34,147 bases of DNA, taken from NCBI GenBank assembly GCA_963773065.1, contig CAVYZN010000010.1, forward strand, positions 1 to 34,147, read 5' to 3'. Of the stretch, positions 10,147 through 33,113 are shown piece by piece. Numbering within the stretch: position 1 is the stretch's first letter; each line of letters starts with the position of its first letter. Position numbers and translations under genes: made by a program. Under the pieces are notes generated by a model. The model was given only the letters and a program-made list of their open reading frames with translations, was not told the DNA's origin and ran no database searches. Origin of the DNA: an uncultured Gammaproteobacteria bacterium. GTDB lineage: Bacteria; Pseudomonadota; Gammaproteobacteria; UBA9214.

Positions 10147-11273
10147 ATGTCGAAACAATTGAATACCAGCGATTGCAAGCGCTGGGTCATCAAGATCGGC
10201 AGCGCTTTGCTGACGGAAAATGGTCGTGGCCTGGCGGTGGGCGCGCTCGACGGCTGGGTTGAACAGATCGTCGCCCTGCGCAAGGAGGGCCGTGAAATGC
10301 TGCTGGTCTCATCCGGTGCGGTGGCCGAGGGCATGACGCGGCTGGGGTGGACCCGTCGCCCGCACGCCCTGCACGAATTGCAGGCGGTGGCGGCCGTCGG
10401 CCAGATGGGGCTGATCCAGGCCTATGAATCGCGTTTCCAGCGATACGGCTTGCATACCGCGCAGGTGCTGCTTACCCACGATGACCTCGCCGACCGCCAG
10501 CGTTACCTGAATGCCCGCAGTACCTTGCGCACCCTGCTCAGGCTGGGCGTGGTGCCGGTCGTGAATGAAAACGACACCGTGGCAACCGAGGAAATTCGCT
10601 TCGGCGACAACGACACGCTGGCCGCGCTGGTGGCCAATCTGGTGGAGGCCGATCTGCTGGTTCTGCTGACGGATCAGGCCGGAATGTATGACAAAGACCC
10701 GCGCAAGGACGCAGGGGCTGCGCTGGTGACCGAGGCGCGGGCCGGCGACGCGGCGCTGGAATCCATGGCGGGCGATAGCGGCGGGATGCTGGGCGCGGCG
10801 GCATGCTGACCAAGGTGCGGGCGGCGGCGCGCGCGGCGCGTTCCGGGACGCTGACGGTGATCGCCTCGGGCAAGGAGGAAAATATCCTCCAGCGCCTGGC
10901 CTCGGGCGAGGCACTCGGCACCCGGCTGTTCCCGGCCAGCGTGCCGCTCGCCGCACGCAAGCAATGGCTCGCCGGGCAACTGCAGGTGCGCGGGTGCCTG
11001 ACGCTTGATGACGGCGCCATCACCGTGCTGCGGGCGGCGGGCAGGAGCCTGCTGCCGGTCGGTGTTACCGGGGTGGAAGGTGATTTCGATCGCGGGGATC
11101 TGGTGGTGTGTTACGCGCCTGGGGGTGAGGAGGCGGCCCGCGGTCTGGTGAATTACAGCGCCGAGGAATCACGCCGGATCATCGGGCATCCCAGCCACCG
11201 CATCGAGGAGATCCTGGGTTATGTCGATGAACCGGAACTGATACACCGCGACAACCTGGTCCTGATGGGATAG
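10147..11273 (+). CDS. proB: Glutamate 5-kinase with PUA domain (frameshift near 10795)
   Basis: VIKIGS, VSSGAVA and NENDTV..FGDNDTL in ORF 10147..10809; MLTKV..SLLPVGV..IHRDNLV in ORF 10803..11273. Confidence 0.93.
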
Positions 11274-11295: not shown

Positions 11296-11373
11296 TCACC
11301 GCAGAGACGCAGAGAACGCAGAGAAATTGTTTTCGTAAAGAATTTCTTTGCGTCCTTTGCGTCTCTGCGGTGA
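11296..11373. repeat. Long palindrome of the GxxExxY-associated repeat family, gene-less copy
   Basis: TCACCGCAGAGACGCAGAGAACGCAGAGAAATT, 12-nt loop, AATTTCTTTGCGTCCTTTGCGTCTCTGCGGTGA. Confidence 0.85.
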
Positions 11374-11403
11374 GTTTATTTGTTATGGATGGACGCCAGG
11401 TAG

Positions 11404-11432
11404 AAATGAAAAAGCCGGTCGATGACCGGCTT
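11404..11432 (-). terminator. Rho-independent terminator after rpsT
   Basis: Minus strand reads AAGCCGGTC-ATC-GACCGGCTT-TTTCATTT. Confidence 0.78.
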
Positions 11433-11459
11433 GGTTGAGTACGCAGGCGCGCCTGAAAA

Positions 11460-11720
11460 TCAGAGGGCGCGGATATGCTGATTGAGTCGGCTCTTGTGGC
11501 GGGCGGCCTTGTTGTGATGAATCAGTCCCTTGCCTACGGCGCTGTCGATGACCGGTACCGCCTTGCGGTAGGCCTGCGTGGCGGCCTCTGAATTGCCGGT
11601 GCGGATGGCGGCAAAGACCTTCTTGATCGAGCTGCGCAGTTCTGAGCGTTGACTGGCGTTGCGCTGGCGGTGGTTTTCCGCCTGCCGCGCCCGCTTGGTT
11701 GCTTGTGCTGTATTGGCCAA
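11460..11720 (-). CDS. rpsT: 30S ribosomal protein S20
   Basis: TTG start, ANTAQATKRARQ..KGLIHHNKAARHKSRL. Confidence 0.97.
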   Translation of the reverse strand: MANTAQATKRARQAENHRQRNASQRSELRSSIKKVFAAIRTGNSEAATQAYRKAVPVIDSAVGKGLIHHNKAARHKSRLNQHIRAL

Positions 11721-12034
11721 AGGATGACTCCTGACGCGGGTGGTTCAAAGGCGGCGTACTATGCGGATTTTCGGGTGATTTGTCAATCGCGGTACGGATG
11801 GAAGCCGGGCGTGTGTCGCATCGGCTGCCCCCGCGCGGCATGATCGGCGGTGATCGGGCCTGCTGGGGGCATGCCGCTGACCGCGTGAACCGGGAATCGT
11901 TGGACCAAACCGGTGCGCGGGGCATGACCTGCTGTTAAGCTATTGTTTTCTAAATGACCTTTACATCAGAGCTGCCAATCTTCCCGCAATGACCATCCGG
12001 CCGGATATGCCCCCGGCTGTGCATGACCCTGTGT

Positions 12035-13615
12035 ATGAGTCGCAAGCTACTAAAAAATACGATGATTGTTGGCTCGATGACGCTGGTGTCCCGGGTGCTG
12101 GGCCTGGTGCGGGACATGGTGATGGCCTGGTTCGGCGCCACCGCCGGCATGGATGCCTTTTTCGTTGCCTTCAAGATCCCGAATTTCCTGCGCCGCCTGT
12201 TTGCCGAAGGGGCTTTCTCGCAAGCCTTCGTGCCGATCATCTCCGAATACAAGGAACAACGTTCCCATGAGGCGGTCCGGGACCTGGTCAACCGGGTGGC
12301 CGGTACCTTCGGCGGGGTACTGATTCTGATTACCGTGGTGGGCGTGCTGGCCAGCCCGCTCGTGATCACGGTGTTCGCCCCGGGATTCCTGTATACGGAC
12401 AGCGCCAGATTCGACCTGGCATCGCAGATGCTGCGTATCACCTTTCCCTATATCCTGTTTGTATCGCTGGTGGCCTTCGCGGCCGGCATACTCAATACCT
12501 ATGGCCGCTTTGCCACGCCGTCGCTCGCGCCGGTGTGGTTGAACGTCGTCATGATCGGCGCCGCGTTATTCGTCGCCCCCCATCTGGAACGGCCGGTGCT
12601 GGCGCTGGCGGGCGGGGTGTTCGTCGCCGGCGTGGTGCAGGTGCTGTACATGCTGCCGTCGCTGCGGCGCATCGGGTTGTTGCCGCGGCCTCGCTGGGAC
12701 ATCCGGGACGAGGGCGTGCGGCGCATCATGAGGCTCATGCTGCCGGGCATATTCGGTTCCTCGGTCGCCCAGATCAACCTGCTGCTCGACACCCTGATCG
12801 CCTCCTTCCTGGTGACCGGCAGCGTGACGTGGCTGTACTACTCCGACCGCCTGGTGGAATTTCCTCTCGGCGTTTTCGCCATCGCCCTGTCGACGGTCAT
12901 ACTCCCGAGCCTCTCGCGCAGTCATGCCAACGCCTCTGAAGAGGAGTTTTCCGCCACGGTTGACTGGGGCCTGCGTCTGGTGCTGCTGGTCGGGATACCT
13001 TCGATGATCGGCCTGATCATACTGGCGCGGCCCGTGCTGGCCACGCTGTTCCTTTATCATGACTTCACCATATGGGATGTACGCATGGCGAGTCTGAGTC
13101 TGATGACGATGTCATTCGGATTGCCGGCCTTCATGCTGATCAAGGTGCTGGCCCCGGCATTCTACTCACGCAAGGATTCGCGGACGCCGGTGCGCATCGC
13201 GGTGATCTCCCTGGTGACCAACCTCTTGTTCAATCTGGTCATCGTAATTCCGATGGTGCGCCTGGGGGTGCCCGGCCCGCATGCCGGGCTGGCGTTCGCG
13301 ACCTCCATTGCCGCCTATGTCAATGCCGGGCTGCTGTTCCGGGTTCTGTACCGTAAACGGATTTATCAGCCGCACGCCGGATGGCGGAAATATCTCCTCC
13401 AGCTTGGTTCGGCCGCCGCCGCGATGGCCGTCGTGTTGCTGTGGGCGGCCCCGGCCCTGGCGGAATGGGCCGCCTGGCCTGCCGGACACCGTGGTCTGGT
13501 CCTTCTGGCCTGGGTATGCGCGGGATCGGCGGTTTATTTCCTCACCCTGCGCGCCGGCGGCCTGCAGGTCTCGACGCTGTGGACTACCGCGCATGCGGCC
13601 GGGGAGGGCGCATGA
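12035..13615 (+). CDS. murJ: Lipid II flippase MurJ/MviN
   Basis: SRVLGLVRD, DAFFVAFKIPNFLRRLFAEGAFSQAFVP and YYSDRLVEFPLG motifs; multiple TM helices. Confidence 0.96.
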   Translation: MSRKLLKNTMIVGSMTLVSRVLGLVRDMVMAWFGATAGMDAFFVAFKIPNFLRRLFAEGAFSQAFVPIISEYKEQRSHEAVRDLVNRVAGTFGGVLILITVVGVLASPLVITVFAPGFLYTDSARFDLASQMLRITFPYILFVSLVAFAAGILNTYGRFATPSLAPVWLNVVMIGAALFVAPHLERPVLALAGGVFVAGVVQVLYMLPSLRRIGLLPRPRWDIRDEGVRRIMRLMLPGIFGSSVAQINLLLDTLIASFLVTGSVTWLYYSDRLVEFPLGVFAIALSTVILPSLSRSHANASEEEFSATVDWGLRLVLLVGIPSMIGLIILARPVLATLFLYHDFTIWDVRMASLSLMTMSFGLPAFMLIKVLAPAFYSRKDSRTPVRIAVISLVTNLLFNLVIVIPMVRLGVPGPHAGLAFATSIAAYVNAGLLFRVLYRKRIYQPHAGWRKYLLQLGSAAAAMAVVLLWAAPALAEWAAWPAGHRGLVLLAWVCAGSAVYFLTLRAGGLQVSTLWTTAHAAGEGA

Positions 13616-13672
13616 GACACCGCCCGGGTGCTATACACTAGGCTTTTTGTTCGGGCGGTCCGGCAAATTACC

Positions 13673-14600
13673 ATGGAATTGGTTCGCGGCATTAATAACT
13701 TGCGTCCCCGTCACCGGGGGTGCGCCGCTACCATCGGCAATTTCGATGGCGTGCACCTCGGGCACCAGGCCGTGCTCGGGCAATTGTCGGAACACGCCGA
13801 GATGCTGCGCCTGCCGGTAACGGTCATCATGTTCGAGCCGCAACCGCGGGAATACTTCACCCCGGAGCGGGTGCCTCCCCGATTCACGCGGTTGAGGGAA
13901 AAGGTGGAGGCGCTGCGCCGCTTTGGCGTGGACCGGGTGCTTTGTCTGCGTTTCGGCGACTTCCTGGCCGGCCTGTTGCCGGAGGAATTTATCCGTATCA
14001 TCCTGCTGGAAGGGCTGGAGGTGAAATATCTCGTGGTCGGGGATGATTTCCGGTTTGGCAGGGGCCGGGCCGGGAATTTCGCGACTGCTCGATCGCGCCG
14101 GGGCCGCCCATGGATTTTCCGTCGTGAAAATGCATACCTTCAATATCGACGGGAAGCGCGTCAGCAGTACGCGCGTTCGCGATGCACTGGAGGCGGGTGA
14201 CCTGGCGGGGGCGGAATCCCTGCTGGGCCGGCCCTACCGCATGAGCGGCCGGGTGGCGCATGGCGACAAACGCGGCCGGACAATCGGTTTCCCGACGGCC
14301 AATATTTTTCTGCACCGCAGCGCAACACCGGTGCAGGGCGTGTTCGCGGTGGAATTGTTCGGGGTGGAGGGCGAACCCGTGCGGGGGGTCGCCAATGTCG
14401 GCAACCGTCCGACCGTGGACGGCACGCGCAGCCTGCTGGAAGTTCACCTGTTCGATTTCCACCGGGACATCTACGGCCGCCACGTACAGGTCGAGTTCCT
14501 GCACAAGATCAGGGCGGAACGGCGTTTCGAGAGTTTCGATGCCCTGCGGCGGCAGATCGAGGATGATGCGACCCAGGCGCGCGCGTGGTTTGGAAAATGA
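13673..14600 (+). CDS. ribF: Bifunctional riboflavin kinase/FAD synthetase (frameshift near 14085)
   Basis: TIGNFDGVHLGHQ and VVGDDFRFG; then VSSTRVR, GRTIGFPTAN, NVGNRPT and LEVHLFDF in the second frame. Confidence 0.93.
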
Positions 14601-14601
14601 A

Positions 14602-15138
14602 TCACCGCAAAGGCGCGAAGGACGCAAAGGGATTCTTTTACAAAACAATTTAAATTTTGCGTTCTTTGCGGTGCCATAATTCTTTATTGGATGACACAAG
14701 CTGACGAGTTGATGCCAGGGAGGGTGTCGATGAGCAGGGAAGATATACTTTCACACGAGATTATCAGCGCGGCAATCGAGGTGCACCGGAATACAGGCCC
14801 CGGTTTGCTTGAATCGGCGTATGAACAGTGCCTCTGCGTGGAACTGGGGAAAAGGAATATTGGTTTTGAGCGGCAGGTTCAAATACCGGTAAACTATAAA
14901 GGTTGTATGATCGATTGCGGTTACCGCATGGATCTGCTTGTCGATGACCTCGTCGTTCTTGAACTGAAGGCAGTCAGCACGCTGGAAAGAATTCATGAAG
15001 CACAATTGCTGATATACCTGAAACTCTCCGGAAAGCGACTTGGGATTTTACTGAATTTCAATGTTGTGCTTTTGAGAAATGGAATCAAACGAGTAGTTAA
15101 CGGCTTATGACTTCGCGCTCTTTGCGTCTTTGCGGTGA
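14602..15138. mobile_element. Putative GxxExxY cassette bounded by inverted repeats, inserted between ribF and ileS
   Basis: Left arm TCACCGCAAAGGCGCGAAGGACGCAAAG (14602-14629), partial inverted arm 14655-14673, right arm CTTCGCGCTCTTTGCGTCTTTGCGGTGA (15111-15138). Visibly more AT-rich than the flanks. Confidence 0.6.
14730..15110 (+). CDS. GxxExxY protein (PD-(D/E)XK nuclease-like)
   Basis: AAIEVHRNTGPGLLESAYEQCL, YRMDLLVDDLVVLELKAV, HEAQLLIYLK, GILLNF. GGAGG RBS before ATG 14730. Confidence 0.93.
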   Translation: MSREDILSHEIISAAIEVHRNTGPGLLESAYEQCLCVELGKRNIGFERQVQIPVNYKGCMIDCGYRMDLLVDDLVVLELKAVSTLERIHEAQLLIYLKLSGKRLGILLNFNVVLLRNGIKRVVNGL

Positions 15139-15146
15139 GAATAAAC

Positions 15147-17996
15147 GTGGCTGATTACAAAAATACCCTCAATCTTCCCAACACGGCTTTCCCCATGAAG
15201 GGCAATCTGCCCCAGCGCGAACCGGAGATACTGCAGCGCTGGGAAGCCATGGACCTCTACGGCACGCTGCGCGAGGCCTGCCGGGGACGCCCGCGATTCG
15301 TGCTGCATGACGGGCCGCCCTACGCCAACGGCGACATCCACATCGGCCATGCCGTCAACAAGGTCCTGAAGGACATCATCGTCAAGAGCAAGACCCTGAG
15401 CGGGTTCGATGCGCCCTATATTCCCGGTTGGGACTGCCACGGCCTGCCGATCGAACTCAATGTCGAGAAGCAGGTCGGCAAGCCCGGCGTCAAGGTGGAT
15501 GCGGCGGCCTTCAGGAACGCCTGCCGTGAATATGCCAGCCAGCAGGTGAACGGCCAGCGGCGGGATTTCATGCGCCTGGGGGTGGTGGGCGACTGGCGGA
15601 ATCCCTATCTCACCATGCAGTACCGCATCGAGGCCGACATCATCCGCGCGCTGGGCAGGATCGCCGAAAACGGCCACCTGTACCAAGGGCTACAAGCCGG
15701 TGCACTGGTGCACGGATTGCGGCTCCGCCCTGGCGGAGGCCGAAGTGGAATATGAGGACAAGGATTCGCTCGCCATCGATGTCCGCTTCCCGGTGCTGAA
15801 TGAGCAGGCGTTGCTCGCGCGCTGCCACCATACCGAGGGGCGTTGCGGAGAGGGTCCGCTGCCGGTCGTGATCTGGACCACCACACCCTGGACGCTGCCG
15901 GCCAACCACGCGGTCGCGCTCAATCCGGCGCTGGACTATGTCGTGGTGCAGTGCGATACCGGCCACGGGCAGGAGCGGCTGCTGCTGGCCGATGCGCTGC
16001 TAAAGGACGCCATGGGCCGTTTCAATGCGGAGAAATACCGAGGTGCTGGCCTATTGCAAGGGGAGCGATCTGGAAGGGCTGAAACTCGCGCATCCGTTCT
16101 ACCAGCGCGAGGTGCCGGTCATCCTCGGCGAGCACGTCACCACGGAGGCGGGCACCGGCGCCGTGCATACCGCGCCCGGGCATGGCCAGGAAGACTATAT
16201 CGTCGGACGCCGTTACAGCCTGCCGGTCGACAATCCGGTCGGCGGCGATGGCCGGTTTCTTCCGGACACCGAACTGTTTGCCGGACAGCATGTCTTCGAG
16301 GCCAACAATTCCGTCATCGAGGTTCTGAAGAGCCGCGGCGGCGCTGCTGCACGAAGAGAAGCTCCGGCACAGTTATCCGCACTGCTGGCGGCACAAGACG
16401 CCGATCATCTTCCGCGCCACGCCGCAATGGTTCATCAGCATGGAGCAGAATCACCTGCGCACGGCGGCATTGAGCGAGATCCGGCAGGTCGAATGGATAC
16501 CGGACTGGGGGCAGGCGCGCATCGCCGGCATGGTGGAGAACCGGCCGGACTGGTGCATCTCGCGCCAGCGGACCTGGGGTGTGCCGATCGCGCTGTTCGT
16601 GCACAGGGAAAGCGGCGAACTGCACCCGGACAGCGCCAGCCTCATCGAGGCCATCGCGCGGCGCGTCGAAGAGCGGGGCATCGACGCCTGGTATGAACTG
16701 GATCCGGCCGAGCTGCTCGGCGGCGATGCCGCCGATTATGAAAAGGTGACCGACACGCTGGACGTGTGGTTCGACTCCGGCGTGACCCACTTTGCCGTGC
16801 TGCGGCAGCGCGAGGATCTGGCGTTTCCGGCCGACCTCTACCTGGAGGGCTCCGACCAGCATCGCGGCTGGTTCCAGTCTTCGCTGCTCACCTCGGTCGC
16901 CATGTGCGGCATGGCGCCCTACAAGGCGGTGCTGACCCACGGCTTTACCGTCGATGCCAACGGCCAGAAGATGTCCAAATCCCGGGGCAATGTGGTGGCC
17001 CCGCAGAAGGTGGTGAATGCGCTCGGCGCCGATATCCTGCGCCTGTGGGTGGCCGCGACCGACTACCGCGGCGAGATGAGCGGTCTCGGACGAGATCCTG
17101 AAACGCATGGGCGACTCCTATCGCCGCCTGCGCAACACCGCCCGCTTTCTGCTCGCCAATCTGAACGGTTTCGATCCCGCCGCGGACCTGCTGGATCCGC
17201 GGCAAATGCTGGGTCTCGACCGCTGGGCCGTCGAACGTACCCGCTTGCTGCAGGAAGCGGGTGCGACGGCCTATGGCGATTACGAATTCCACCGCATCTA
17301 TCAGCTGGTGCACAACTTCTGCGCGGTGGATATGGGCGGCTTCTATCTGGATATCATCAAGGACCGGCAGTACACCACGCGTGCCGACGGCATCCCGCGG
17401 CGCTCCGCGCAGACGGCGATGTACCACGTGGTCGAGGCGCTGGTGCGCTGGTTCGCGCCGATCATGAGTTTCACCGCCGAGGAGATCTGGCGGCACCTGC
17501 CCGGGACCGCGTGCCGCATCGGTTTTTCTCTCGACCTGGCATGAGCTGCCGCCGGTCTGCATACGGAATCCGAGGTCCGGCGGCACATGGATGCCGATTA
17601 CTGGGACCGGGTCATCGGGTGCGTGAGGCCGTCAGCAAGGAACTGGAGAAGCTGCGGGTGGCCGGCGGGATAGGCTCCTCGCTCGATGCCGAGGTGGACC
17701 TCTATGCCGATGCGGAAACCGCCGGACTGTTGCGCGCCCTGGAGGATGAGCTGCGCTTCGTGCTGATCACCTCCTATGCCCGCGTTCATGACGCCGCCGC
17801 CCGTCCGGCTGAGGCGGTCGTGGCCGGCGATCCCGGGCGGCAACTCTGGCTGCGGGTTGCGCCCTCGGAGCATGCCAAGTGCGTGCGCTGCTGGCACCAT
17901 CGCGAGGACGTGGGTGCGAACCCGGAACATCCCGAACTCTGCGGGCGTTGCATCGAGAATATCGCGGGCGACGGTGAATTGCGCCGTTACGCCTGA
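15147..17996 (+). CDS. ileS: Isoleucine--tRNA ligase (about five frameshifts, probably sequencing indels)
   Basis: [58 protein letters not shown] and C-terminal CxRCW..CGRC, spread over successive frames. Confidence 0.94.
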
Positions 17997-18022
17997 AAAC
18001 CCGTCTTGCGGAGCAATCGCGC

Positions 18023-18499
18023 ATGAAATGGTTCTGGCTTTCCGGGGTGGTGCTGATCCTGGATCAGTGCAGCAAATGGATCGCCGATTCCCTGCTGGAT
18101 CCGCACGACTCCATCCCGCTGCTGCCGATCCTTGCCCTGCGCAAGGCCTACAATCCGGGCGCGGCTTTCAGCTTTTTGAGCGATGCCGCCGGCTGGCAGC
18201 GTTGGTTCTTCGTCGGGTTGGCGCTAGTGGTTATCGTCGTGCTCGTGGCCTGGCTGCGGCGTCTCCCCCAGGGGCAGGGACGCATGGCGCTTGCGCTGGC
18301 GCTGATACTGGGCGGGGCGGCGGGCAACCTGGTCGACCGGTTGCTCTACGGTCATGTCATCGATTTCATCGACCTGTATTACCGCGCCTGGCACTGGCCC
18401 ACGTTCAATATCGCCGATTCGGCGATCACGCTCGGCGCCGCGCTGTTGCTGCTCGATGCCTTCATGGGGCGCAGGGAAGAAACCCCGGGAAAACAATGA
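18023..18499 (+). CDS. lspA: Lipoprotein signal peptidase II
   Basis: DQCSK, NPGAAFS, GNLVDR, VIDFI and FNIADS motifs. Confidence 0.96.
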   Translation: MKWFWLSGVVLILDQCSKWIADSLLDPHDSIPLLPILALRKAYNPGAAFSFLSDAAGWQRWFFVGLALVVIVVLVAWLRRLPQGQGRMALALALILGGAAGNLVDRLLYGHVIDFIDLYYRAWHWPTFNIADSAITLGAALLLLDAFMGRREETPGKQ

Positions 18500-18544
18500 G
18501 CGGCGCCTTTATCGAGTGTTAACATGAATGGCTGACATTTCTTC

Positions 18545-18634
18545 GTCGTCATTCCGGCCAAACGAGCATAGCGAGCGCGAGCCGGAATCCAGGAACCTTA
18601 AGGACATCCTGGATTCCCGCTTTCGCGGGAATGA
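18545..18634. repeat. REP/dRS3-like palindromic element 1, interrupted by intron copy 1 (completed by CGAC at 20560-20563)
   Basis: GTCGTCATTCCGGC..GCCGGAATCCAGG..CCTGGATTCCCGCTTTCGCGGGAATGA|CGAC. Removing the intron restores the GTCGTCATTCC/GGAATGACGAC terminal inverted repeat. Confidence 0.85.
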
Positions 18635-20559
18635 GTGCGCCCGTGAAGGCGCGGTATCCGCATGGTGAAAGTCCATGCCGGGGCAAGCCAAGACCCCGAA
18701 GCCGAAGGTAACTGCGTCGCCGCGAGGCGGGGTGGAGAGCAACTGGAGGCGAACTGGCGGTCCGCAGGGTAACGAACTCGATTCGGCGGGATGCAGCGAC
18801 GAGCCTGCTCATTCATGGCGAAGTCCGAAACACGCCCGGCACGCTGGTAATGGCGTGCAAAGCGCTGCCGGGGCGCATCACGTGGTTGGAGGCGGAACGT
18901 TGGGAAGGTATCGCGAGATAAGCGGGGAGACCTGCCGTCGAGGTGACGTCGGCAGGGGTCAGAACCTTCGTAGTACCGAAGGACGGAGCAAGGAAGCCAT
19001 GGCACAAACCGAGGGAAACCGGAGTTCGAGAGCAGGGGTGCATACCCCGCCTAACGCTTGCCCTGCCCGTCTGAGAGGTGCGGAAAGCAAAGCCGCTCCG
19101 AGGGAAGGGAGGTAGGAAGGTGGATGTGTGAAATCTGGAAAGAGGCAAAGCGTGAGCGCAGCATCGGTAGTGCCCGCGAGGGCTAAACAAGAAGCGGAAA
19201 CCCGGGTCCGAGACTGGAGCTGGGTGGACACCACGATCTGGACGGAACGCATGTTGGCGGCGCTGGATAACGGCGTCAAAGGAAGCAAATGGTTCAGCCT
19301 GATCGACAAAGTCGCGCGGGCGGACACGCTGCGCCAAGCCTGGGAGAAAGTTGCCCGGAACAAAGGTGTGGCGGGAGTGGACGGGCAAAGCGTGGAGAAG
19401 TTTGCCGCGCAGGCGGAGGCTTATCTGAACGAACTGGAAGAAACGTTGAAGCGGGGCAGTTACCGGCCGCAGCCGGTCAAGCGCGTGGAGATTCCCAAAG
19501 GACCGGGGCAAACCCGGCCGCTGGGCATCCCGGCGGTGAAAGACCGCATCGTGCAGACCGCGCTCAAGCGGGTATGTGAGCCCATCTTCGAGCGGGAATT
19601 CCACGACAACAGCTACGGCTTCCGCCCCGGACGCGGATGCAAGGACGCTCTGAGAGAAGTCGACCGGCTCATCAAGGACGGCTACCCCCACGTAGTGGAT
19701 GCCGACCTCAAGAGCTACTTCGACAGTATCCCGCATGAACGGCTGCTGGCCCGGGTAGAAGAACGGATTAGTGATGGGCGAGTCCTTGACCTGATCCGAG
19801 GCTACCTGAGCCAAGACATCCTGCATGGCCTGGTGCGCTGGACACCGACGGGAGGCACGCCGCAAGGCGCGGTCATCAGCCCGTTACTGGCGAACCTCTA
19901 CCTGCACCCGCTGGACGGCCTGATGCAAGGCAAGGGGTACCGGATGGTTCGGTATGCCGACGACTTCGTCATACTTTGCCGGACGGCGGAAGAAGCGAAG
20001 GCCGCACTGGAAGAAGTGCATGCCTGGGTGGAAGCTAACGGTCTTGCCCTGCACCCCAACAAGACCCAAGTGGGCGACTGTCGGGAAACGGGGCAAGGCT
20101 TCGACTTCCTGGGCTACCGCTTCGAAGCGGGGCGGCGCTGGGTGCGCAAGAAAAGCCTGAGAGCCATACGGGACAAGCTGCGGAGCAGGACCGGACGCAC
20201 GCGCGGGGAGAGCCTGAGGAGCATGATCGCGGAGATCAACCCGATCCTGAAAGGCTGGTTTGGCTACTTCAAGCATGCCCACCCGCTAGAGTTCAAGCGA
20301 CTGGACGGCTTCATCCGTCGTCGCCTGCGGGCGCTGTTGCGCAAACGGGCGAAGCGGCCGGGAATGGGGCACTGCCATGCTGATCATGCGCGTTGGCCGA
20401 AGGCTTTCTTCGCTGAGCAAGGGCTCTTCACCTTGACCGGAGCCCATGCGCAGGCGAGCCAATCACGATGTTGAAACCACCGACTGGAGAGCCGTGTGCG
20501 GGAGAACCGCACGCACGGTTCGGAGGGAGGGGAGGGCGCGAGCCCTTCTCTACCCCTAT
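18635..20559 (+). mobile_element. Group II intron, copy 1 (1925 bp)
   Basis: 5' GTGCG; domain V GAGCCGTGTGCGGGAGAACCGCACGCACGGTTC (20489-20521); domain VI with bulged A; 3' ..CCCCTAT. Boundaries confirmed by where identity with copy 2 ends. Confidence 0.95.
19128..20474 (+). CDS. ltrA: Group II intron reverse transcriptase/maturase (no endonuclease domain)
   Basis: GVDG, RPLGIPAVKDRIVQ, SYGFRPGR, DADLKSYFDSIPH, GTPQGAVISPLLANLYL, RYADDF, FDFLGY and GWFGYF motifs. Confidence 0.96.
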   Translation: MKSGKRQSVSAASVVPARAKQEAETRVRDWSWVDTTIWTERMLAALDNGVKGSKWFSLIDKVARADTLRQAWEKVARNKGVAGVDGQSVEKFAAQAEAYLNELEETLKRGSYRPQPVKRVEIPKGPGQTRPLGIPAVKDRIVQTALKRVCEPIFEREFHDNSYGFRPGRGCKDALREVDRLIKDGYPHVVDADLKSYFDSIPHERLLARVEERISDGRVLDLIRGYLSQDILHGLVRWTPTGGTPQGAVISPLLANLYLHPLDGLMQGKGYRMVRYADDFVILCRTAEEAKAALEEVHAWVEANGLALHPNKTQVGDCRETGQGFDFLGYRFEAGRRWVRKKSLRAIRDKLRSRTGRTRGESLRSMIAEINPILKGWFGYFKHAHPLEFKRLDGFIRRRLRALLRKRAKRPGMGHCHADHARWPKAFFAEQGLFTLTGAHAQASQSRC

Positions 20560-20644
20560 CGACTGTTAGTTATGACGTGCGTCACTTATTTATGTAAGTC
20601 TCAATAAGTTGATGACATCCAGGGGGATAGTTTTGACCAGACGT

Positions 20645-21099
20645 GTGAAATATCCCATCGGCGCGGGCAGCACCGTCACCCTGCATTTCTCGCTCACGCT
20701 GGAAGACGGCACGGTGGCCGATAGCACCTTTGACGGTGAGCCGCATACCTTTATCCTGGGTGACGGGTCGCTGCTGCGCGGTCTGGAACTGGCGCTCTAC
20801 GGCCTGCGTCCGGGCGATACCCAGCGCCTGCTGCTGCACCCCGAACAGACCTTCGGGATGCGCGATCCGGCTAAAATTCATCACCTGCCGCGCGCGGAGT
20901 TCGCCGACGACATCACCCTGGAACCGGGCATCATCATCGGCTTTACCGACGCCGGCGGCGAGGAGATACCCGGGACCGTCTGTCCGCGACCGAAGCGGCC
21001 GTCGAGGTGGACTTCAATCACCCGCTGGCAGGCCATGCCGTCACCTTCGATGTGGAAATCATCGACGTGGTCCCGGCGGATATCGATGACGCCGATTGA
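20645..21099 (+). CDS. fkpB: FKBP-type peptidyl-prolyl isomerase SlpA/FkpB (frameshift near 20985)
   Basis: VTLHFSLTLEDGTVADST..LGDGSLL; then VEVDFNHPLAGHAVTFDVEII* in the shifted frame. Canonical position after lspA. Confidence 0.9.
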
Positions 21100-21102
21100 T
21101 GT

Positions 21103-21133
21103 TCACCGCAAAGACGCAAAGGACGCAGAGAAA
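21103..21133 (+). repeat. Lone left arm of the GxxExxY-associated repeat
   Basis: TCACCGCAAAGACGCAAAGGACGCAGAGAAA, 3 nt after the fkpB stop. I found no matching right arm downstream. Confidence 0.75.
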
Positions 21134-21192: not shown

Positions 21193-21268
21193 GTCATCCC
21201 CGCGAAAGCGGGGATCCAGTAACCCACTCGATCCTGTACAGACTGGATTCCCGCTTTCGCGGGAATGA
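21193..21268. repeat. REP/dRS3-like palindromic element 2, interrupted by intron copy 2
   Basis: GTCATCCCCGCGAAAGCGGGGATCCAGT..ACTGGATTCCCGCTTTCGCGGGAATGA|C(23194). Confidence 0.85.
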
Positions 21269-23193
21269 GTGCGCCCGTGAAGGCGCGGTATCCGCATGGT
21301 GAAAGTCCATGCCGGGGCAAGCCAAGACCCCGAAGCCGAAGGTAACTGCGTCGCCGCGAGGCGGGGTGGAGAGCAACTGGAGGCGAACTGGCGGTCCGCA
21401 GGGTAACGAACTCGATTCGGCGGGATGCAGCGACGAGCCTGCTCATTCATGGCGAAGTCCGAAACACGCCCGGCACGCTGGTAATGGCGTGCAAAGCGCT
21501 GCCGGGGCGCATCACGTGGTTGGAGGCGGAACGTTGGGAAGGTATCGCGAGATAAGCGGGGAGACCTGCCGTCGAGGTGACGTCGGCAGGGGTCAGAACC
21601 TTCGTAGTACCGAAGGACGGAGCAAGGAAGCCATGGCACAAACCGAGGGAAACCGGAGTTCGAGAGCAGGGGTGCATACCCCGCCTAACGCTTGCCCTGC
21701 CCGTCTGAGAGGTGCGGAAAGCAAAGCCGCTCCGAGGGAAGGGAGGTAGGAAGGTGGATGTGTGAAATCTGGAAAGAGGCAAAGCGTGAGCGCAGCATCG
21801 GTAGTGCCCGCGAGGGCTAAACAAGAAGCGGAAACCCGGGTCCGAGACTGGAGCTGGGTGGACACCACGATCTGGACGGAACGCATGTTGGCGGCGCTGG
21901 ATAACGGCGTCAAAGGAAGCAAATGGTTCAGCCTGATCGACAAAGTCGCGCGGGCGGACACGCTGCGCCAAGCCTGGGAGAAAGTTGCCCGGAACAAAGG
22001 TGTGGCGGGAGTGGACGGGCAAAGCGTGGAGAAGTTTGCCGCGCAGGCGGAGGCTTATCTGAACGAACTGGAAGAAACGTTGAAGCGGGGCAGTTACCGG
22101 CCGCAGCCGGTCAAGCGCGTGGAGATTCCCAAAGGACCGGGGCAAACCCGGCCGCTGGGCATCCCGGCGGTGAAAGACCGCATCGTGCAGACCGCGCTCA
22201 AGCGGGTATGTGAGCCCATCTTCGAGCGGGAATTCCACGACAACAGCTACGGCTTCCGCCCCGGACGCGGATGCAAGGACGCTCTGAGAGAAGTCGACCG
22301 GCTCATCAAGGACGGCTACCCCCACGTAGTGGATGCCGACCTCAAGAGCTACTTCGACAGTATCCCGCATGAACGGCTGCTGGCCCGGGTAGAAGAACGG
22401 ATTAGTGATGGGCGAGTCCTTGACCTGATCCGAGGCTACCTGAGCCAAGACATCCTGCATGGCCTGGTGCGCTGGACACCGACGGGAGGCACGCCGCAAG
22501 GCGCGGTCATCAGCCCGTTACTGGCGAACCTCTACCTGCACCCGCTGGACGGCCTGATGCAAGGCAAGGGGTACCGGATGGTTCGGTATGCCGACGACTT
22601 CGTCATACTTTGCCGGACGGCGGAAGAAGCGAAGGCCGCACTGGAAGAAGTGCATGCCTGGGTGGAAGCTAACGGTCTTGCCCTGCACCCCAACAAGACC
22701 CAAGTGGGCGACTGTCGGGAAACGGGGCAAGGCTTCGACTTCCTGGGCTACCGCTTCGAAGCGGGGCGGCGCTGGGTGCGCAAGAAAAGCCTGAGAGCCA
22801 TACGGGACAAGCTGCGGAGCAGGACCGGACGCACGCGCGGGGAGAGCCTGAGGAGCATGATCGCGGAGATCAACCCGATCCTGAAAGGCTGGTTTGGCTA
22901 CTTCAAGCATGCCCACCCGCTAGAGTTCAAGCGACTGGACGGCTTCATCCGTCGTCGCCTGCGGGCGCTGTTGCGCAAACGGGCGAAGCGGCCGGGAATG
23001 GGGCACTGCCATGCTGATCATGCGCGTTGGCCGAAGGCTTTCTTCGCTGAGCAAGGGCTCTTCACCTTGACCGGAGCCCATGCGCAGGCGAGCCAATCAC
23101 GATGTTGAAACCACCGACTGGAGAGCCGTGTGCGGGAGAACCGCACGCACGGTTCGGAGGGAGGGGAGGGCGCGAGCCCTTCTCTACCCCTAT
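21269..23193 (+). mobile_element. Group II intron, copy 2 (1925 bp, offset 2634 from copy 1)
   Basis: Same GTGCG..CCCCTAT ends. All ORFs wholly internal to the intron have translations identical to copy 1. Confidence 0.95.
21762..23108 (+). CDS. ltrA: Group II intron reverse transcriptase/maturase, copy 2
   Basis: 448-aa translation identical to 19128..20474; YADD motif. Confidence 0.96.
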   Translation: MKSGKRQSVSAASVVPARAKQEAETRVRDWSWVDTTIWTERMLAALDNGVKGSKWFSLIDKVARADTLRQAWEKVARNKGVAGVDGQSVEKFAAQAEAYLNELEETLKRGSYRPQPVKRVEIPKGPGQTRPLGIPAVKDRIVQTALKRVCEPIFEREFHDNSYGFRPGRGCKDALREVDRLIKDGYPHVVDADLKSYFDSIPHERLLARVEERISDGRVLDLIRGYLSQDILHGLVRWTPTGGTPQGAVISPLLANLYLHPLDGLMQGKGYRMVRYADDFVILCRTAEEAKAALEEVHAWVEANGLALHPNKTQVGDCRETGQGFDFLGYRFEAGRRWVRKKSLRAIRDKLRSRTGRTRGESLRSMIAEINPILKGWFGYFKHAHPLEFKRLDGFIRRRLRALLRKRAKRPGMGHCHADHARWPKAFFAEQGLFTLTGAHAQASQSRC

Positions 23194-23490: not shown

Positions 23491-23565
23491 AATAAACCCA
23501 GACAGAGTCAAGCAGAAGAAGGCGGTATGTGTAATGCTTGCATGCTTTGAAGTGCCGCGCTTTAT

Positions 23566-23948
23566 GTTTGAATGACAGCCCTGATGAAGAGGGGATTAAG
23601 ACCTATGTGATTCACGTTAAGCATCCGTTCACGTATTATTTGTTTGAACGACAGCCCTGATGAAGAAGGGATTAAGACCGGGACTACACACTCGCGTACT
23701 CCTCATCCTTGAACAATTCAGGTTTAAACGACAGCCCTGATGAAGAAGGGATTAAGACGTCTGCATTATTTGCCCAAGGTTAATGTGTTACCGTTGTTTG
23801 AACGACAGCCCTGATGAAGAAGGGATTAAGACCGCAATGCGCTTCATCTATGAAGCCTCCTCGATGTTTGAACGACAGCCCTGATGAAGAAGGGATTAAG
23901 ACTTCGCAGGTAATCGACATCCCATGGTTGCAGTGGTTTGAACGACAG
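23566..23948 (+). CRISPR. Orphan CRISPR array, type III-like 37-bp repeat; 5 full repeats, 1 truncated repeat, 5 spacers
   Basis: GTTTGAACGACAGCCCTGATGAAGAAGGGATTAAGAC at 23566, 23642, 23722, 23796 and 23866; 13-bp partial repeat at 23936. Unique spacers of 39, 43, 37, 33 and 33 nt. CCCT/AGGG hairpin and ATTAAGAC 3' end. Confidence 0.95.
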
Positions 23949-25522: not shown

Positions 25523-26152
25523 TCAGTAGGACTCCGGCTGGGCCGTGCCGTAGCGCCACGAGCCATCCGGCTGCAGGCAGGCCGTGCCGTACCCATTTAC
25601 CTGTTTTCCGCCGACCATAATCTTCGTGCTGTACTCCCGCTCCTGCAGGCACGGATTGACCGACGCGGTGTTTGCATACTGGGTCGGCGGGGGCGGCGGC
25701 GCGCTGTTCGCCTGCGGATAATTGCCCTGATCCGCGGTGTTCCTGTGCTGGTAGGCGTTGAGCCCATAGCCGAGAATGCCACCGCCTAGCAAGCCGATCC
25801 ACAGTTTTCGTTGATTGTTATTATTGTTGTTGTGATGGTTATTCTTGCCGCACGTGGAGCACGGGTAGGAGGGATAATAATGGGGATAATAAGGTCCCCT
25901 GCCTGCGTAATGGGGATAATAAGGCCCCCGGCCCGCGTAATGGCCATAGTAGCTGTTGTTGTAATGGGTGTTGTAATGGGTGCTTTGTACATGCGTGTTA
26001 AAGTAATGCTCATTACTCTTGTAGCCACCCTTGTTCCAGCCATGATCATGATCATCATCGCCACCCTCACCGGCCCAGGCAGCACCCGGCACCGCGAGGA
26101 TCATGGCCATGACTGCCGCCAGCGCGGTTGAGGATTTACGCTGCGTGTTCAT
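25523..26152 (-). CDS. Secreted His/Tyr/Asn-rich protein with glycine-zipper helix and 17-kDa surface-antigen-like C-terminus
   Basis: Signal peptide (AWA), HYN repeats, two HYAGRGPYYP units, LWIGLLGGGILGY, CLQEREY..VGGK..YGTACLQPDGSWR. AAGGAGG RBS. Confidence 0.8.
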   Translation of the reverse strand: MNTQRKSSTALAAVMAMILAVPGAAWAGEGGDDDHDHGWNKGGYKSNEHYFNTHVQSTHYNTHYNNSYYGHYAGRGPYYPHYAGRGPYYPHYYPSYPCSTCGKNNHHNNNNNNQRKLWIGLLGGGILGYGLNAYQHRNTADQGNYPQANSAPPPPPTQYANTASVNPCLQEREYSTKIMVGGKQVNGYGTACLQPDGSWRYGTAQPESY

Positions 26153-26186
26153 AATTGCCTCCTTGGTAGTGGATCACGGTTATGTA

Positions 26187-32705: not shown

Positions 32706-32748
32706 GCTATATTCGTAACACACGTAACCCATCAACCAGGAGGCAGTT

Positions 32749-33113
32749 ATGAACACACAGAGTAAAACCTCGTCCATCTTAGCGTCGGTCATGGCCATGA
32801 TCCTCGCGGTGCCGGGCGGCGCCTGGGCCGGTGGGGGTCGCTATGACAATGGCGGGCACTATAATGGCTACCACCAGAATGAACATTACAACAGCCATTA
32901 CAACAACCATTACAACGGCTATACAACAATCATTACAACGGCTATTACAAGGGTAGCCGGTACTATTATCCCCAGTACTCTGGGTACCAGTCGTGCGGTA
33001 ATAAGAATAACCATCACAACAACAACAATAACGACAACGACAACCTGTGGATCGGCCTGCTGGGCGGTGGCATCATCGGTTATACCCTGAGTAATATCCA
33101 TTCGGGCTACTAA
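32749..33113 (+). CDS. Shorter paralog of the His/Tyr/Asn-rich secreted protein (frameshift near 32922)
   Basis: MNTQSKTSSILASVMAMILAVPGGAWAG, HYN repeats; shifted frame gives NHHNNNNNDNDNLWIGLLGGGIIGYTLSNIHSGY*. Confidence 0.72.

What the first reader, a model, noticed from the sequence alone, without database searches (positions are those of the whole stretch)
11296..21133. GxxExxY nuclease-like gene with its own family of palindromic repeats: possible REP/RAYT-like mobile system
Seen: the motif TCACCGCA(A/G)AGACGCA(A/G)AG..CGCA(A/G)AG, built of 8-9-nt CGCARAG units, occurs as inverted arms bracketing the GxxExxY gene (14602-14629 and 15111-15138, plus an inner partial arm at 14655-14673). 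It also occurs as an empty 78-bp hairpin after proB (11296-11373) and as a lone arm after fkpB (21103-21133). Three arms directly follow a stop codon (0-3 nt gap). The cassette splits the normally adjacent ribF and ileS. Known: GxxExxY proteins are PD-(D/E)XK-like, and I know of no established function. Inference: an autonomous cassette plus non-autonomous copies, analogous to RAYT/REPIN but driven by a different nuclease fold.
Basis: partly seen in the sequence, partly recalled or inferred. Interest (0 to 1): 0.75.

Follow-up and report, generated by a model that had tools for sequence, protein, structure and literature searches.

The report
Nuclease gene framed by palindromic repeats
A small nuclease gene wedged between two essential genes is framed by the same hairpin repeat that also sits empty nearby, and this pairing of gene and repeat recurs across many bacterial phyla, which points to an undescribed kind of selfish mobile element.

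Summary
All arms lie at the stated coordinates (6 motif matches against 0.11 expected by chance). The ORF is a GxxExxY / PDDEXK_3 protein (E 1e-43), most likely starting at 14730.

The pairing is general. All 17 GxxExxY genes I could inspect carry short tandem units or an inverted repeat on at least one side; 16 have both flanks in view, and 15 of those are flanked on both. The genes sit co-oriented between housekeeping genes (fabD-fabG, murB-ddl, ribF-ileS).

Repeat type follows protein clade, not host phylum. RRAG-type units go with one clade and GGAT-type units with another, and one genome holds both pairings.

Gene-less hairpins far outnumber cassettes. Only 3 of 79 motif-selected loci carry the gene between the arms. 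One organism has at least 78 hairpin places in 2.1 Mb against 3 gene places.

There are no target-site duplications. Hairpins nest inside hairpin loops.

The architecture (about 27-bp terminal stem, three tandem heptamer-like units, small ORF) matches ORF-bearing 23S rRNA intervening sequences.

My best reading is a REP/RAYT-like element family built around a Cas4/RecB-like nuclease. I did not show mobility or cleavage, and I found no description of this in print.

The parts
11296..11373 (.). Gene-less hairpin copy between the convergent proB and an unassigned minus-strand ORF: two 37-nt arms, each TCACC plus three CGCARAG units.
   Evidence: I4; (z -11.6). Its loop and right arm are 84% complementary over 50 nt to the left end of the cassette (I3), so the copies in this window are homologous beyond the arms.
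14602..14632 (+). Left arm of the cassette. It begins 1 nt after the ribF stop codon.
   Evidence: I15, D4.
14655..14674 (-). Inner partial arm of two units. It can pair locally with the left arm.
   Evidence: The local DNA fold is weak (z -2.7). In the RNA fold of the whole cassette the left arm pairs with the distal right arm instead.
14730..15110 (+). GxxExxY / PDDEXK_3 nuclease gene (126 aa plus stop). It is co-oriented with ribF and ileS and has no promoter-like site of its own.
   Evidence: Residues E28, D68, E78, K80, Q92 and Y96 are invariant in 53 aligned sequences. The model has pLDDT 91.4. No promoter-like match lies between 14600 and 15140.
15111..15138 (-). Right arm of the cassette. 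It starts directly after the stop codon and ends 8 nt before the ileS GTG at 15147.
   Evidence: (I15, D17).
21103..21133 (+). Lone left-type arm 3 nt after the fkpB stop. No partner arm follows.
   Evidence: (D4, I5).
13628..14600 (+). ribF, the upstream host gene. It is read in two frames (13628-14200 and 14043-14600).
15147..17996 (+). ileS, the downstream host gene. It is read in at least three frames.

Best explanation
The window holds three copies of a very widespread palindromic repeat family. Each arm has a YTCACC foot followed by, typically, three 7-nt CRCRRAG cores spaced 8-9 nt apart. One copy is the gene-bearing form: a promoter-less cassette of left arm, GxxExxY nuclease gene and right arm, inserted co-oriented between ribF and ileS.

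I read the family as a selfish element system with gene-bearing and gene-less members. In layout it resembles REP/RAYT and ORF-bearing rRNA intervening sequences.

Proposed working, step by step:
1. The cassette is transcribed by read-through from the host operon. Co-orientation is shown; expression is inferred.
2. In the transcript the two arms pair into a stem of about 27 bp that encloses the ORF. This is predicted. By analogy with rRNA intervening sequences the stem would be an RNase III substrate, so that insertion into a transcribed unit is tolerated. This is inferred.
3. The protein is an active-site-intact Cas4/RecB-like PD-(D/E)XK nuclease. Conservation is shown. It would recognise the unit array or hairpin foot of its own repeat type and cut it. 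This is inferred from clade-specific repeat types.
4. Host repair or recombination across the conserved arms then copies the element or the gene into other copies and new sites, often hairpin loops. This is inferred from the nesting, the absence of target duplications and the many gene-less copies.
For: (a) Generality on the gene side. I inspected 17 GxxExxY genes, the window's included.
- 10 have CRCRRAG-type arms or hairpins: window, L001, L002, L003, L004, L033, L036, L047a, L103 (one side in view) and L116.
- 5 have GGAT-class units: L039, L133, L134, L137 (a downstream hairpin only) and L138 (AATCC units, the reverse complement).
- L132 has ACAAAT-type unit arms, and L047b has a 37-nt inverted repeat, 81% complementary.
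- 11 of the 17 were found by protein similarity or by accident, not through the arms.

(b) A family-blind scan of about 580 kb for 80-260-aa ORFs flanked by inverted repeats gave 11 rows. Seven are GxxExxY genes and none of the others forms a second recurrent family. Among arm pairs spaced more than 200 nt apart, 6 of 7 enclose a GxxExxY gene.

(c) Repeat type follows protein clade and not host.
- The 5 GGAT-class genes form a clade with 95/89 support, drawn from Spirochaetota, Fusobacteriota, Chloroflexota, Gemmatimonadota and Bacteroidota.
- Mean identity is 47.8% within a repeat type (27 pairs) against 35.5% between types (64 pairs).
- Gemmatirosa carries both gene types, each beside its own hairpin type. 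Both hairpin types are multi-copy there: at least 78 places (capped) and 17 places.

(d) Gene-less copies dominate.
- Only 3 of the 79 distinct full-flank loci hit by the motif carry the gene between the arms.
- 73 of 80 arm pairs have 2-184 nt between the arms.

(e) The gene looks inserted. It lies between gene pairs that are ordinarily neighbours, and both neighbours are co-oriented in 11 of 11 loci where both could be judged.

(f) In Gemmatirosa, hairpins sit nested in the loops of other hairpins.

(g) The two arms of one hairpin match each other better than arms from other hairpins: 0.789 against 0.678, sd 0.008.

(i) The RNA fold of the whole cassette pairs the distal arms, in both the MFE and the centroid structure, with z -3.2. 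The same layout is described for a 23S rRNA intervening sequence excised by RNase III: a 28-bp terminal stem and three tandem heptamers before a small ORF (PMC4990558, passages read).
Against: - No mobility event was seen. I recovered no filled-and-empty pair of orthologous sites.
- There are no target-site duplications: 4, 1 and 1 matches for 2, 3 and 4 nt, against 4.05, 1.05 and 0.47 expected.
- A nuclease alone cannot transfer strands, so step 4 rests entirely on unnamed host functions.
- 37 of 50 lone three-unit arms have no recognisable partner within 700 nt. Nothing in the model explains them.
- The co-variation amounts to about one deep split on a 14-sequence tree. That is equally explained by arms and gene simply being inherited together.
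- The CRCRRAG arms stay nearly the same while the proteins diverge to 38-62% identity. This could mean that a host factor or RNA constraint, rather than the encoded protein, reads the arms.
- Whether structure is selected in RNA could not be decided. The sense strand was more stable in 12 hairpins and the antisense strand in 7.
- Six of the 17 genes were found through their arms.
Confidence: 0.5

Rival explanations
1. The hairpins are an independent repeat family, spread or kept by some other factor, perhaps useful to the host as mRNA-end or processing signals. GxxExxY would then be a homing-type nuclease gene that parasitises them. It would cut gene-less hairpins and be copied in by recombination across the arms, without multiplying the hairpins themselves.
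For: - The gene is found between arms or beside whole hairpins.
- Gene-less copies are the great majority.
- The arms are 28-37 nt long. By my recollection of minimal homology lengths, not tested here, that may be just long enough for recombination.
- Target duplications are absent.
- The fold resembles nucleases that only cut.
Against: - This reading leaves the spread of the hairpins unexplained.
- In the window and in Gemmatirosa the gene lies beside nearly complete hairpins, not inside one loop.
- A second, rarer hairpin type again occurs together with its own gene clade in the same genome.
Confidence: 0.2
2. GxxExxY is a host-adopted protein that binds or cuts the hairpins as RNA or DNA for the cell's benefit, for example in transcript processing or stability, or in resolving cruciforms at palindromes. 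The arms around its own gene would then be autoregulatory sites. Nothing would be mobile today.
For: - Hairpins lie near gene ends: 30 of 39 are within 80 nt of the end of a 120-codon ORF.
- The catalytic residues are strictly conserved.
- The family is very large, with 21,066 clusters at 50% identity reaching E 0.001.
- There is weak similarity to Holliday-junction resolvases.
Against: - The gene sits sporadically between different conserved gene pairs in different lineages.
- Two of the 17 genes are read in two frames (L001, L033).
- An earlier survey recorded multiple transfers and mixed clades for this family (PMC3424549, table row read).
- Related loci show nested hairpins and hairpins at contig ends.
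Confidence: 0.15
3. The elements matter only as RNA, like rRNA intervening sequences. The arms exist so that RNase III removes the insert. The gene-less hairpins are what remains after the ORF has decayed, and the protein has nothing to do with the repeats.
For: - The predicted long-range stem encloses the ORF.
- The layout is shared with an intervening sequence whose ORF is described as decaying (PMC4990558).
- Two gene copies are disrupted.
Against: - The 60-200-nt interiors of gene-less hairpins show no trace of the gene; the best E-value is 0.42.
- Many hairpins have loops of only 2-30 nt.
- This reading predicts neither the abundance (at least 78 places in 2.1 Mb) nor the nesting.
- Clade-specific repeat types are unexplained.
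Confidence: 0.1
4. These are ordinary intrinsic terminators or chance palindromes that merely resemble each other.
For: The hairpins are intergenic and close to gene ends.
Against: - The motif gives 6 matches against 0.11 expected.
- The same foot and units occur across phyla.
- A run of four or more T follows only 13 of 66 hairpins.
- The terminator scan flags none of the three window sites as a whole; its only hit there is a 5-pair stem inside the left arm.
- The cassette lies inside an operon upstream of an essential gene.
Confidence: 0.03

Closest known systems
REP / RAYT (TnpA-REP, 'REPtron') systems
   Same: - Short palindromic repeats at high copy number in intergenic DNA.
- One or a few copies of an associated gene flanked by the repeats in inverted orientation.
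- Protein groups paired with their own repeat types (abstract of PMC8266576).
- No target duplication found here.
   Different: - The protein is a PD-(D/E)XK (Cas4/RecB-like) nuclease, not a HUH/Y1 enzyme, so the covalent cut-and-join chemistry of TnpA-REP is not available.
- The arms are arrays of three 7-nt cores behind a YTCACC foot, not a hairpin behind a GTAG motif.
- Nearly the same repeat occurs across many phyla rather than being lineage-specific.
- Lone half-sites are common.
ORF-bearing intervening sequences of 23S rRNA (S23p / four-helix-bundle type)
   Same: - A small ORF enclosed by terminal inverted repeats that form a stem of about 28 bp.
- Three tandem heptamer repeats (GACAGAT in that paper) ahead of the ORF.
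- The element sits inside a transcribed unit and is regarded as selfish and horizontally transferred.
- Excision by RNase III is shown there (PMC4990558, passages read).
- In the window, the stem is predicted and the three units per arm are seen.
   Different: - The window's element lies between protein-coding genes, not in rRNA; the window has no rRNA match.
- The ORF belongs to a different family.
- The units have 1-2-nt spacers.
- Gene-less copies are numerous.
- I could not test whether S23p cassettes carry the same arms.
Non-autonomous inverted-repeat elements of bacteria (MITEs; Correia and ERIC elements, named from memory)
   Same: Short, structured, multi-copy inserts in transcribed intergenic regions, with terminal inverted repeats.
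   Different: - There is no target-site duplication and no related transposase.
- The interiors are not conserved between genomes.
- A dedicated small nuclease gene occupies a minority of copies.
Free-standing homing endonuclease genes
   Same: A lone small nuclease gene lodged between conserved neighbouring genes, co-oriented with them and with no obvious host function.
   Different: - Homing genes target one homologous locus. Here the shared sequence is a dispersed repeat.
- Flanking unit arrays are not a feature of homing genes.
- Cleavage is untested.
Cas4 / RecB-family and Hjc-type PD-(D/E)XK nucleases
   Same: - The best structural matches are Cas4 (4ic1, 4r5q) and then the archaeal resolvase Hjc (2wiw).
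- There are weak Cas4 profile hits (E 0.0026).
- E, D, ExK and Q...Y positions are invariant. Reading the last as the RecB-family QxxxY motif is from memory.
   Different: - The matches are weak (best E 5.8e-3, TM 0.40-0.53).
- The protein is 126 aa and a single domain, with no helicase partner.
- The CRISPR-like array 8 kb away in the window has no shown link to it.

Membership tests
GxxExxY protein family (TIGR04256 / Pfam PF13366 PDDEXK_3) | Profile score above the curated cut-off | tested here: met
   147.1 bits against a cut-off of 35; 146 bits against 22.
GxxExxY protein family (TIGR04256 / Pfam PF13366 PDDEXK_3) | GxxExxY motif and PD-(D/E)XK catalytic D...ExK | tested here: met
   The motif reads G25-L-L-E28-S-A-Y31. 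E28, D68, E78 and K80 are invariant in 53 sequences.
REP/RAYT (REPtron) | The associated gene encodes a HUH/Y1 TnpA-like enzyme | tested here: not met
   PDDEXK_3 / GxxExxY are the only matches. The fold is nearest Cas4 and Hjc.
REP/RAYT (REPtron) | The gene is flanked by its repeats in inverted orientation | tested here: met
   Window (I15); L002, L003, L004, L036, L047a, L116, L133.
REP/RAYT (REPtron) | Repeats at high copy number, dispersed and extragenic | tested here: inconclusive
   Gemmatirosa has at least 78 places in 2.1 Mb, capped. The window has 3 sites in 34 kb.
REP/RAYT (REPtron) | Protein groups co-evolve with their cognate repeats | tested here: inconclusive
   Repeat type follows protein clade in 14 genes and within one genome. 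This is about one split on the tree and could be plain co-inheritance.
REP/RAYT (REPtron) | Conserved GTAG-type motif at the foot of the hairpin | tested here: not met
   The foot is YTCAC followed by the first C of the unit, in 56-61 of 77 hairpin ends.
REP/RAYT (REPtron) | Cleavage and strand transfer of the single-stranded repeat by the protein | not testable with these tools
   Needs biochemistry.
MITE / DDE-transposon derivatives | Target-site duplication flanking terminal inverted repeats | tested here: not met
   Direct flank matches are at chance level in 66 hairpins.
rRNA intervening sequence (S23p type) | Located within a helix of 23S or 16S rRNA | tested here: not met
   The element lies between ribF and ileS. 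Rfam finds only tRNAs and group II intron domains in the window.
rRNA intervening sequence (S23p type) | Terminal inverted repeats form a stem of about 28 bp around a small ORF, with tandem heptamers before the ORF | tested here: met
   The fold of 14598-15142 pairs the distal arms. There are three units per arm. The features are as described in PMC4990558.
rRNA intervening sequence (S23p type) | The ORF is of the S23p / four-helix-bundle family | tested here: not met
   The ORF is PDDEXK_3.
rRNA intervening sequence (S23p type) | Excised from the transcript by RNase III | not testable with these tools
   Needs RNA end mapping with and without RNase III.
Free-standing homing endonuclease gene | The nuclease cuts the gene-less allele and is copied in by repair | not testable with these tools
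   Only the position between conserved neighbours is shown.
Intrinsic terminator | GC-rich hairpin directly followed by a T run | tested here: not met
   13 of 66 hairpins have four or more T within 12 nt. The scan flags no whole window hairpin.

The most novel reading that the evidence does not exclude
GxxExxY proteins and their triple-unit hairpins form a previously unrecognised class of nuclease-driven palindromic mobile elements, spanning many phyla and possibly both prokaryotic domains. They would be a PD-(D/E)XK counterpart of REP/RAYT in which each nuclease clade reads its own 7-nt unit array. The same element class would then be the source of the ORF-bearing intervening sequences of rRNA, whose origin and mobility have been open questions since they were first described.
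Probability: 0.3. Interest if true: 0.9.

Novelty: new variant of a known kind. Interest (0 to 1): 0.8.

Why it matters
- It gives a concrete, testable function to a very large family of unknown function. The family has 21,066 clusters at 50% identity, and the one survey that lists it records its function as unknown (PMC3424549).
- It defines a repeat family that recurs with nearly the same sequence in very distant organisms. That family probably breaks many metagenome assemblies, since several hits lie at contig ends.
- It supplies a second, chemically different example of the repeat-plus-dedicated-enzyme arrangement known from REP/RAYT.
- It links operon-resident cassettes to the long-unexplained rRNA intervening sequences.
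- If the nuclease clades really read different 7-nt unit arrays, they would also be a natural set of small sequence- or structure-specific nucleases.

Tried and rejected
- Target-site duplications: none above chance.
- Palindromic extension into the flanks: present in a minority only. 12 of 66 hairpins have a run of 5 or more, against a mean of 4.8; the highest of 500 shuffles also reached 12. Insertion into pre-existing stem-loops is therefore possible but not general.
- Gene remnants inside gene-less hairpins: none, and the interiors are unrelated between genomes.
- RNA-strand asymmetry of hairpin stability: 12 against 7, undecided.
- Orthologous filled and empty sites among the fetched loci: none found.
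- Second cargo family between such arms: none in about 580 kb. One 945-nt pair of two-unit arms in L015 is probably chance.
- Four-helix-bundle (S23p-type) genes, to test for shared arms: one 50-kb annotated stretch held none, and I stopped there.
- Phage records: no homologue.
- Solved structures by sequence: nothing meaningful, best E 0.14.
- PHROGs: no match. PADLOC: only weak Cas4 hits.
- Integron attC reading: rejected, because the conserved ends do not fit the attC core consensus as I recall it, and the sites are dispersed singly rather than in cassette arrays. I did not search systematically for an integrase.
- Homodimer prediction: no verdict.
- The first identity table and tree used wrong frames for L137 and L138. 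One search replaces them.
- Literature. 'GxxExxY' appears in 3 papers, none on function. PF13366, PDDEXK_3 and TIGR04256 appear in 2. Four 16-nt arm strings appear in 0 papers, and the shorter strings hit only unrelated primers. 'XK nuclease' together with 'extragenic palindromic' appears in 0. IPR026350 and 'GxxExxY protein' add nothing new. Subscription journals and the family curators' own notes were not visible.

Full report
**What is in the window.** Gene order around the finding:
- obg
- proB (read in two frames)
- a hairpin
- an unassigned minus-strand ORF
- murJ
- ribF (two frames)
- the cassette
- ileS (at least three frames)
- lspA
- a group II intron
- fkpB (two frames)
- a lone arm
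- a second copy of the intron

- The empty hairpin is at 11296-11373, with 37-nt arms that are 89% complementary. Its DNA fold gives z -11.6.
- The cassette arms are at 14602-14629 and 15111-15138, 28 nt and 82% complementary.
- The inner two-unit arm is at 14655-14674.
- The lone arm is at 21103-21133 and has no partner.

A two-unit pattern gives 6 matches against 0.11 expected by chance.

The loop and right arm of the first hairpin are 84% complementary over 50 nt to the left end of the cassette. The copies are therefore homologous beyond the arms.

The ORF is a GxxExxY / PDDEXK_3 protein. The start at ATG 14730, behind AGGGAGGG, gives 126 aa, the length of most homologues.

The right arm ends 8 nt before the ileS start. 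No promoter-like site lies in the cassette.

In E. coli K-12, ribF and ileS are 42 nt apart and are followed by lspA, fkpB and ispH.

**The gene side: is the arrangement general?** A tblastn search of plasmid records with the window protein found 7 records. A second search with a divergent relative added two more places. With the genes found in motif-selected loci and in their flanks, I could inspect 17 genes.

All 17 carry arrays of short tandem units or an inverted repeat on at least one side:
- Ten have CRCRRAG-type units.
  - In Bacteroides finegoldii the arms enclose the gene between radA and an FAD-dependent gene.
  - In Sphingomonas they enclose it between fabD and fabG.
  - In Bernardetia they enclose it between an adenine deaminase gene and a guanylyltransferase gene.
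  - In Gemmatirosa two whole hairpins bracket the gene.
- Five have GGAT-class units:
  - Treponema has inverted arms.
  - Fusobacteria and Persicobacter have the units on both sides in direct orientation.
  - A Thermoflexales genome has five units upstream and a hairpin downstream, between murB and ddl.
  - The second Gemmatirosa gene has only a downstream hairpin.
- Prevotella has ACAAAT-type unit arms.
- The second gene of L047 has a 37-nt inverted repeat.

Both neighbours are co-oriented with the gene in 11 of 11 loci where both could be judged.

Two copies (L001, L033) are read in two frames.

**The repeat side.** I spent the single genome scan on the three-unit motif.

The record titles name these groups:
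- Chloroflexota
- Acidobacteriota
- Planctomycetota
- Myxococcales
- Thermodesulfobacteriota
- several proteobacterial groups
- Bacteroidota
- Nitrospinales
- Nitrospirota
- Armatimonadota
- Verrucomicrobiota
- Methylomirabilota
- two archaeal bins

Bins can be contaminated, so I would not lean on the archaeal ones.

Several hits lie at contig ends, as expected of multi-copy repeats.

Counts:
- Across all loci then held there were 80 convergent arm pairs. In 73 the arms are 2-184 nt apart. Of the 7 wider pairs, 6 enclose a GxxExxY gene.
- Among the 79 distinct full-flank loci, 3 carry the gene between the arms that triggered the hit. Two further genes turned up by accident, each with other repeat types.
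- Fifty three-unit arms had no partner by my pattern. Thirteen of them have a degenerate partner, and 37 have none within 700 nt.

Other properties of the hairpins:
- Interiors are unrelated between genomes and show no trace of the gene.
- The conserved foot is YTCAC before the first unit.
- Arms have three units in 199 of 239 cases, although the search pattern favoured three.
- The two arms of one hairpin match each other better than arms of other hairpins (0.789 against 0.678).
- There is no target duplication. A minority of hairpins continue as a palindrome into the flanks.
- Hairpins lie near gene ends: 30 of 39 are within 80 nt of a long ORF's end, and 11 of those lie between convergent ORFs. 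The tight spacing to stop codons seen in the window is not general.

**One genome in depth.** The hairpin next to the Gemmatirosa gene matches at least 39 places in each of two plasmids of about 1 Mb. tblastn finds only 3 gene places there, all on one plasmid.

The GGAT-type hairpin beside the second gene type matches 7 and 10 places in the same two plasmids, and again nowhere else.

In 100 kb of these plasmids there are two sub-types of the RRAG hairpin. Hairpins also sit nested in the loops of other hairpins, up to three deep. Part of this nesting is itself a repeated composite.

**Protein and repeat go together.** In a 14-gene tree the five genes with GGAT-class units form a supported clade (95/89). 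They come from five phyla. Bacteroidota and Chloroflexota-related hosts occur on both sides of the split. Gemmatimonadota does too, if L001, which is not in the tree, is counted among the RRAG genes.

Mean identity is 47.8% within a repeat type and 35.5% between types.

This is essentially one deep split. It shows that arms and gene travel together through horizontal transfer, and it is compatible with specific recognition, but it does not prove recognition.

**The protein.**
- The model is confident (pLDDT 91.4).
- The nearest solved folds are Cas4 proteins and then Hjc resolvases, all weak.
- The E, D and ExK positions and a Q...Y pair are invariant.
- The family is very large, with 21,066 representatives at E 0.001 and 7,374 at 1e-10.
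- The first 14 rows of that search are 240-295-aa proteins with two matched stretches, that is, tandem two-domain forms. That hints at a two-domain working unit, as inference only.

**Comparison with what is known.**
- The layout is that of REP/RAYT, but the enzyme family, the foot motif and the breadth of distribution differ (for the abstract).
- The closest described anatomy is the ORF-bearing intervening sequence of 23S rRNA. It has a 28-bp terminal stem, three tandem heptamers before a small ORF of unknown function, excision by RNase III, and a long-standing suggestion that the ORF once served mobility (PMC4990558, passages read).
- The RNA fold of the whole window cassette pairs the distal arms around the ORF.
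- I could not test whether S23p-type cassettes carry the same arms.
- I found no paper that describes the association. The one survey that lists the family gives its function as unknown and notes multiple transfers.

**Verdict.** My best reading is a selfish element family with gene-bearing and gene-less members. It is tolerated in operons because its arms form a processable stem, and it is spread through breaks made by its own nuclease.

The association, the copy-number asymmetry, the clade-specific repeat types, the insertion-like positions and the nesting are shown. Cleavage, RNA processing and mobility are inferred.

**What stayed unchecked.**
- Synteny of the ribF-ileS junction in relatives was not examined.
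- Genome-wide counts in the source organism were not obtained.
- Co-occurrence of hairpins and genes across genomes was not tested.

Noticed in passing
window 18604-20559 and 21238-23193: Two copies of a group II intron, 2634 nt apart and 99% identical over the 300 nt compared, flank fkpB. The reverse transcriptase/maturase ORFs are at 19128-20474 and 21762-23108. The Rfam intron match (RF00029) lies at 20487-20559 and 23121-23193. Each copy begins just after the same small palindrome (GGATTCCCGCTTTCGCGGGAATGA), which suggests insertion beside a stem-loop.
   Followed up: partly
L042 769-792 and 867-1232; window 21103-21133 and 21238 onward: In a Propionivibrio-labelled contig a lone arm is followed about 75 nt later by DNA that is 75% identical over 367 nt to the 3' part of the window's intron. 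In the window a lone arm also lies about 100 nt ahead of an intron copy. Introns may split these hairpins.
   Followed up: no
window 23564-23948: A CRISPR-like array: five copies of a repeat of about 37 nt, plus a partial sixth, spaced 70-80 nt start to start. I did not identify any cas gene among the ORFs I scanned.
   Followed up: partly
window 10147-11273, 13628-14600, 15135-17996, 20609-21099: proB, ribF, ileS and fkpB are each read in two or more frames. Since essential genes are affected, assembly indel errors are more likely than decay. ORF ends in this window should be read with that in mind.
   Followed up: partly
window 25766-26178 and 32723-33083: Long inverted repeats (124 nt at 80% and 81 nt at 83%) lie about 6.5 kb apart. 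They contain 12-nt tandem repeats (TACAACAACCAT-like) and bracket a region with a Rieske / GMC-oxidoreductase-like ORF. Unexplained.
   Followed up: no
L135 5500-5650; L136 6340-6581: In the Gemmatirosa plasmids, hairpins of one sub-type sit inside the loops of hairpins of another, up to three levels deep. Part of this composite recurs as a repeat of about 170 nt.
   Followed up: partly
proteins P0122-P0135: The 14 best-scoring representatives in the 1.84-billion-protein library are 240-295 aa long and match the 126-aa query twice, so tandem two-domain GxxExxY proteins exist.
   Followed up: no
window 15134-15147; L002 1100-1117; L047 3019-3040: [quoted passage not shown] It could serve as that gene's ribosome-binding site. 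The resemblance to a Shine-Dalgarno element is from memory.
   Followed up: no
L022 2827-3066 and L049 2917-3154: Two contigs of one Sulfuricellaceae bin share 240 nt at 94% identity around the hairpin. In that genome the repeated unit is therefore longer than the hairpin itself.
   Followed up: no
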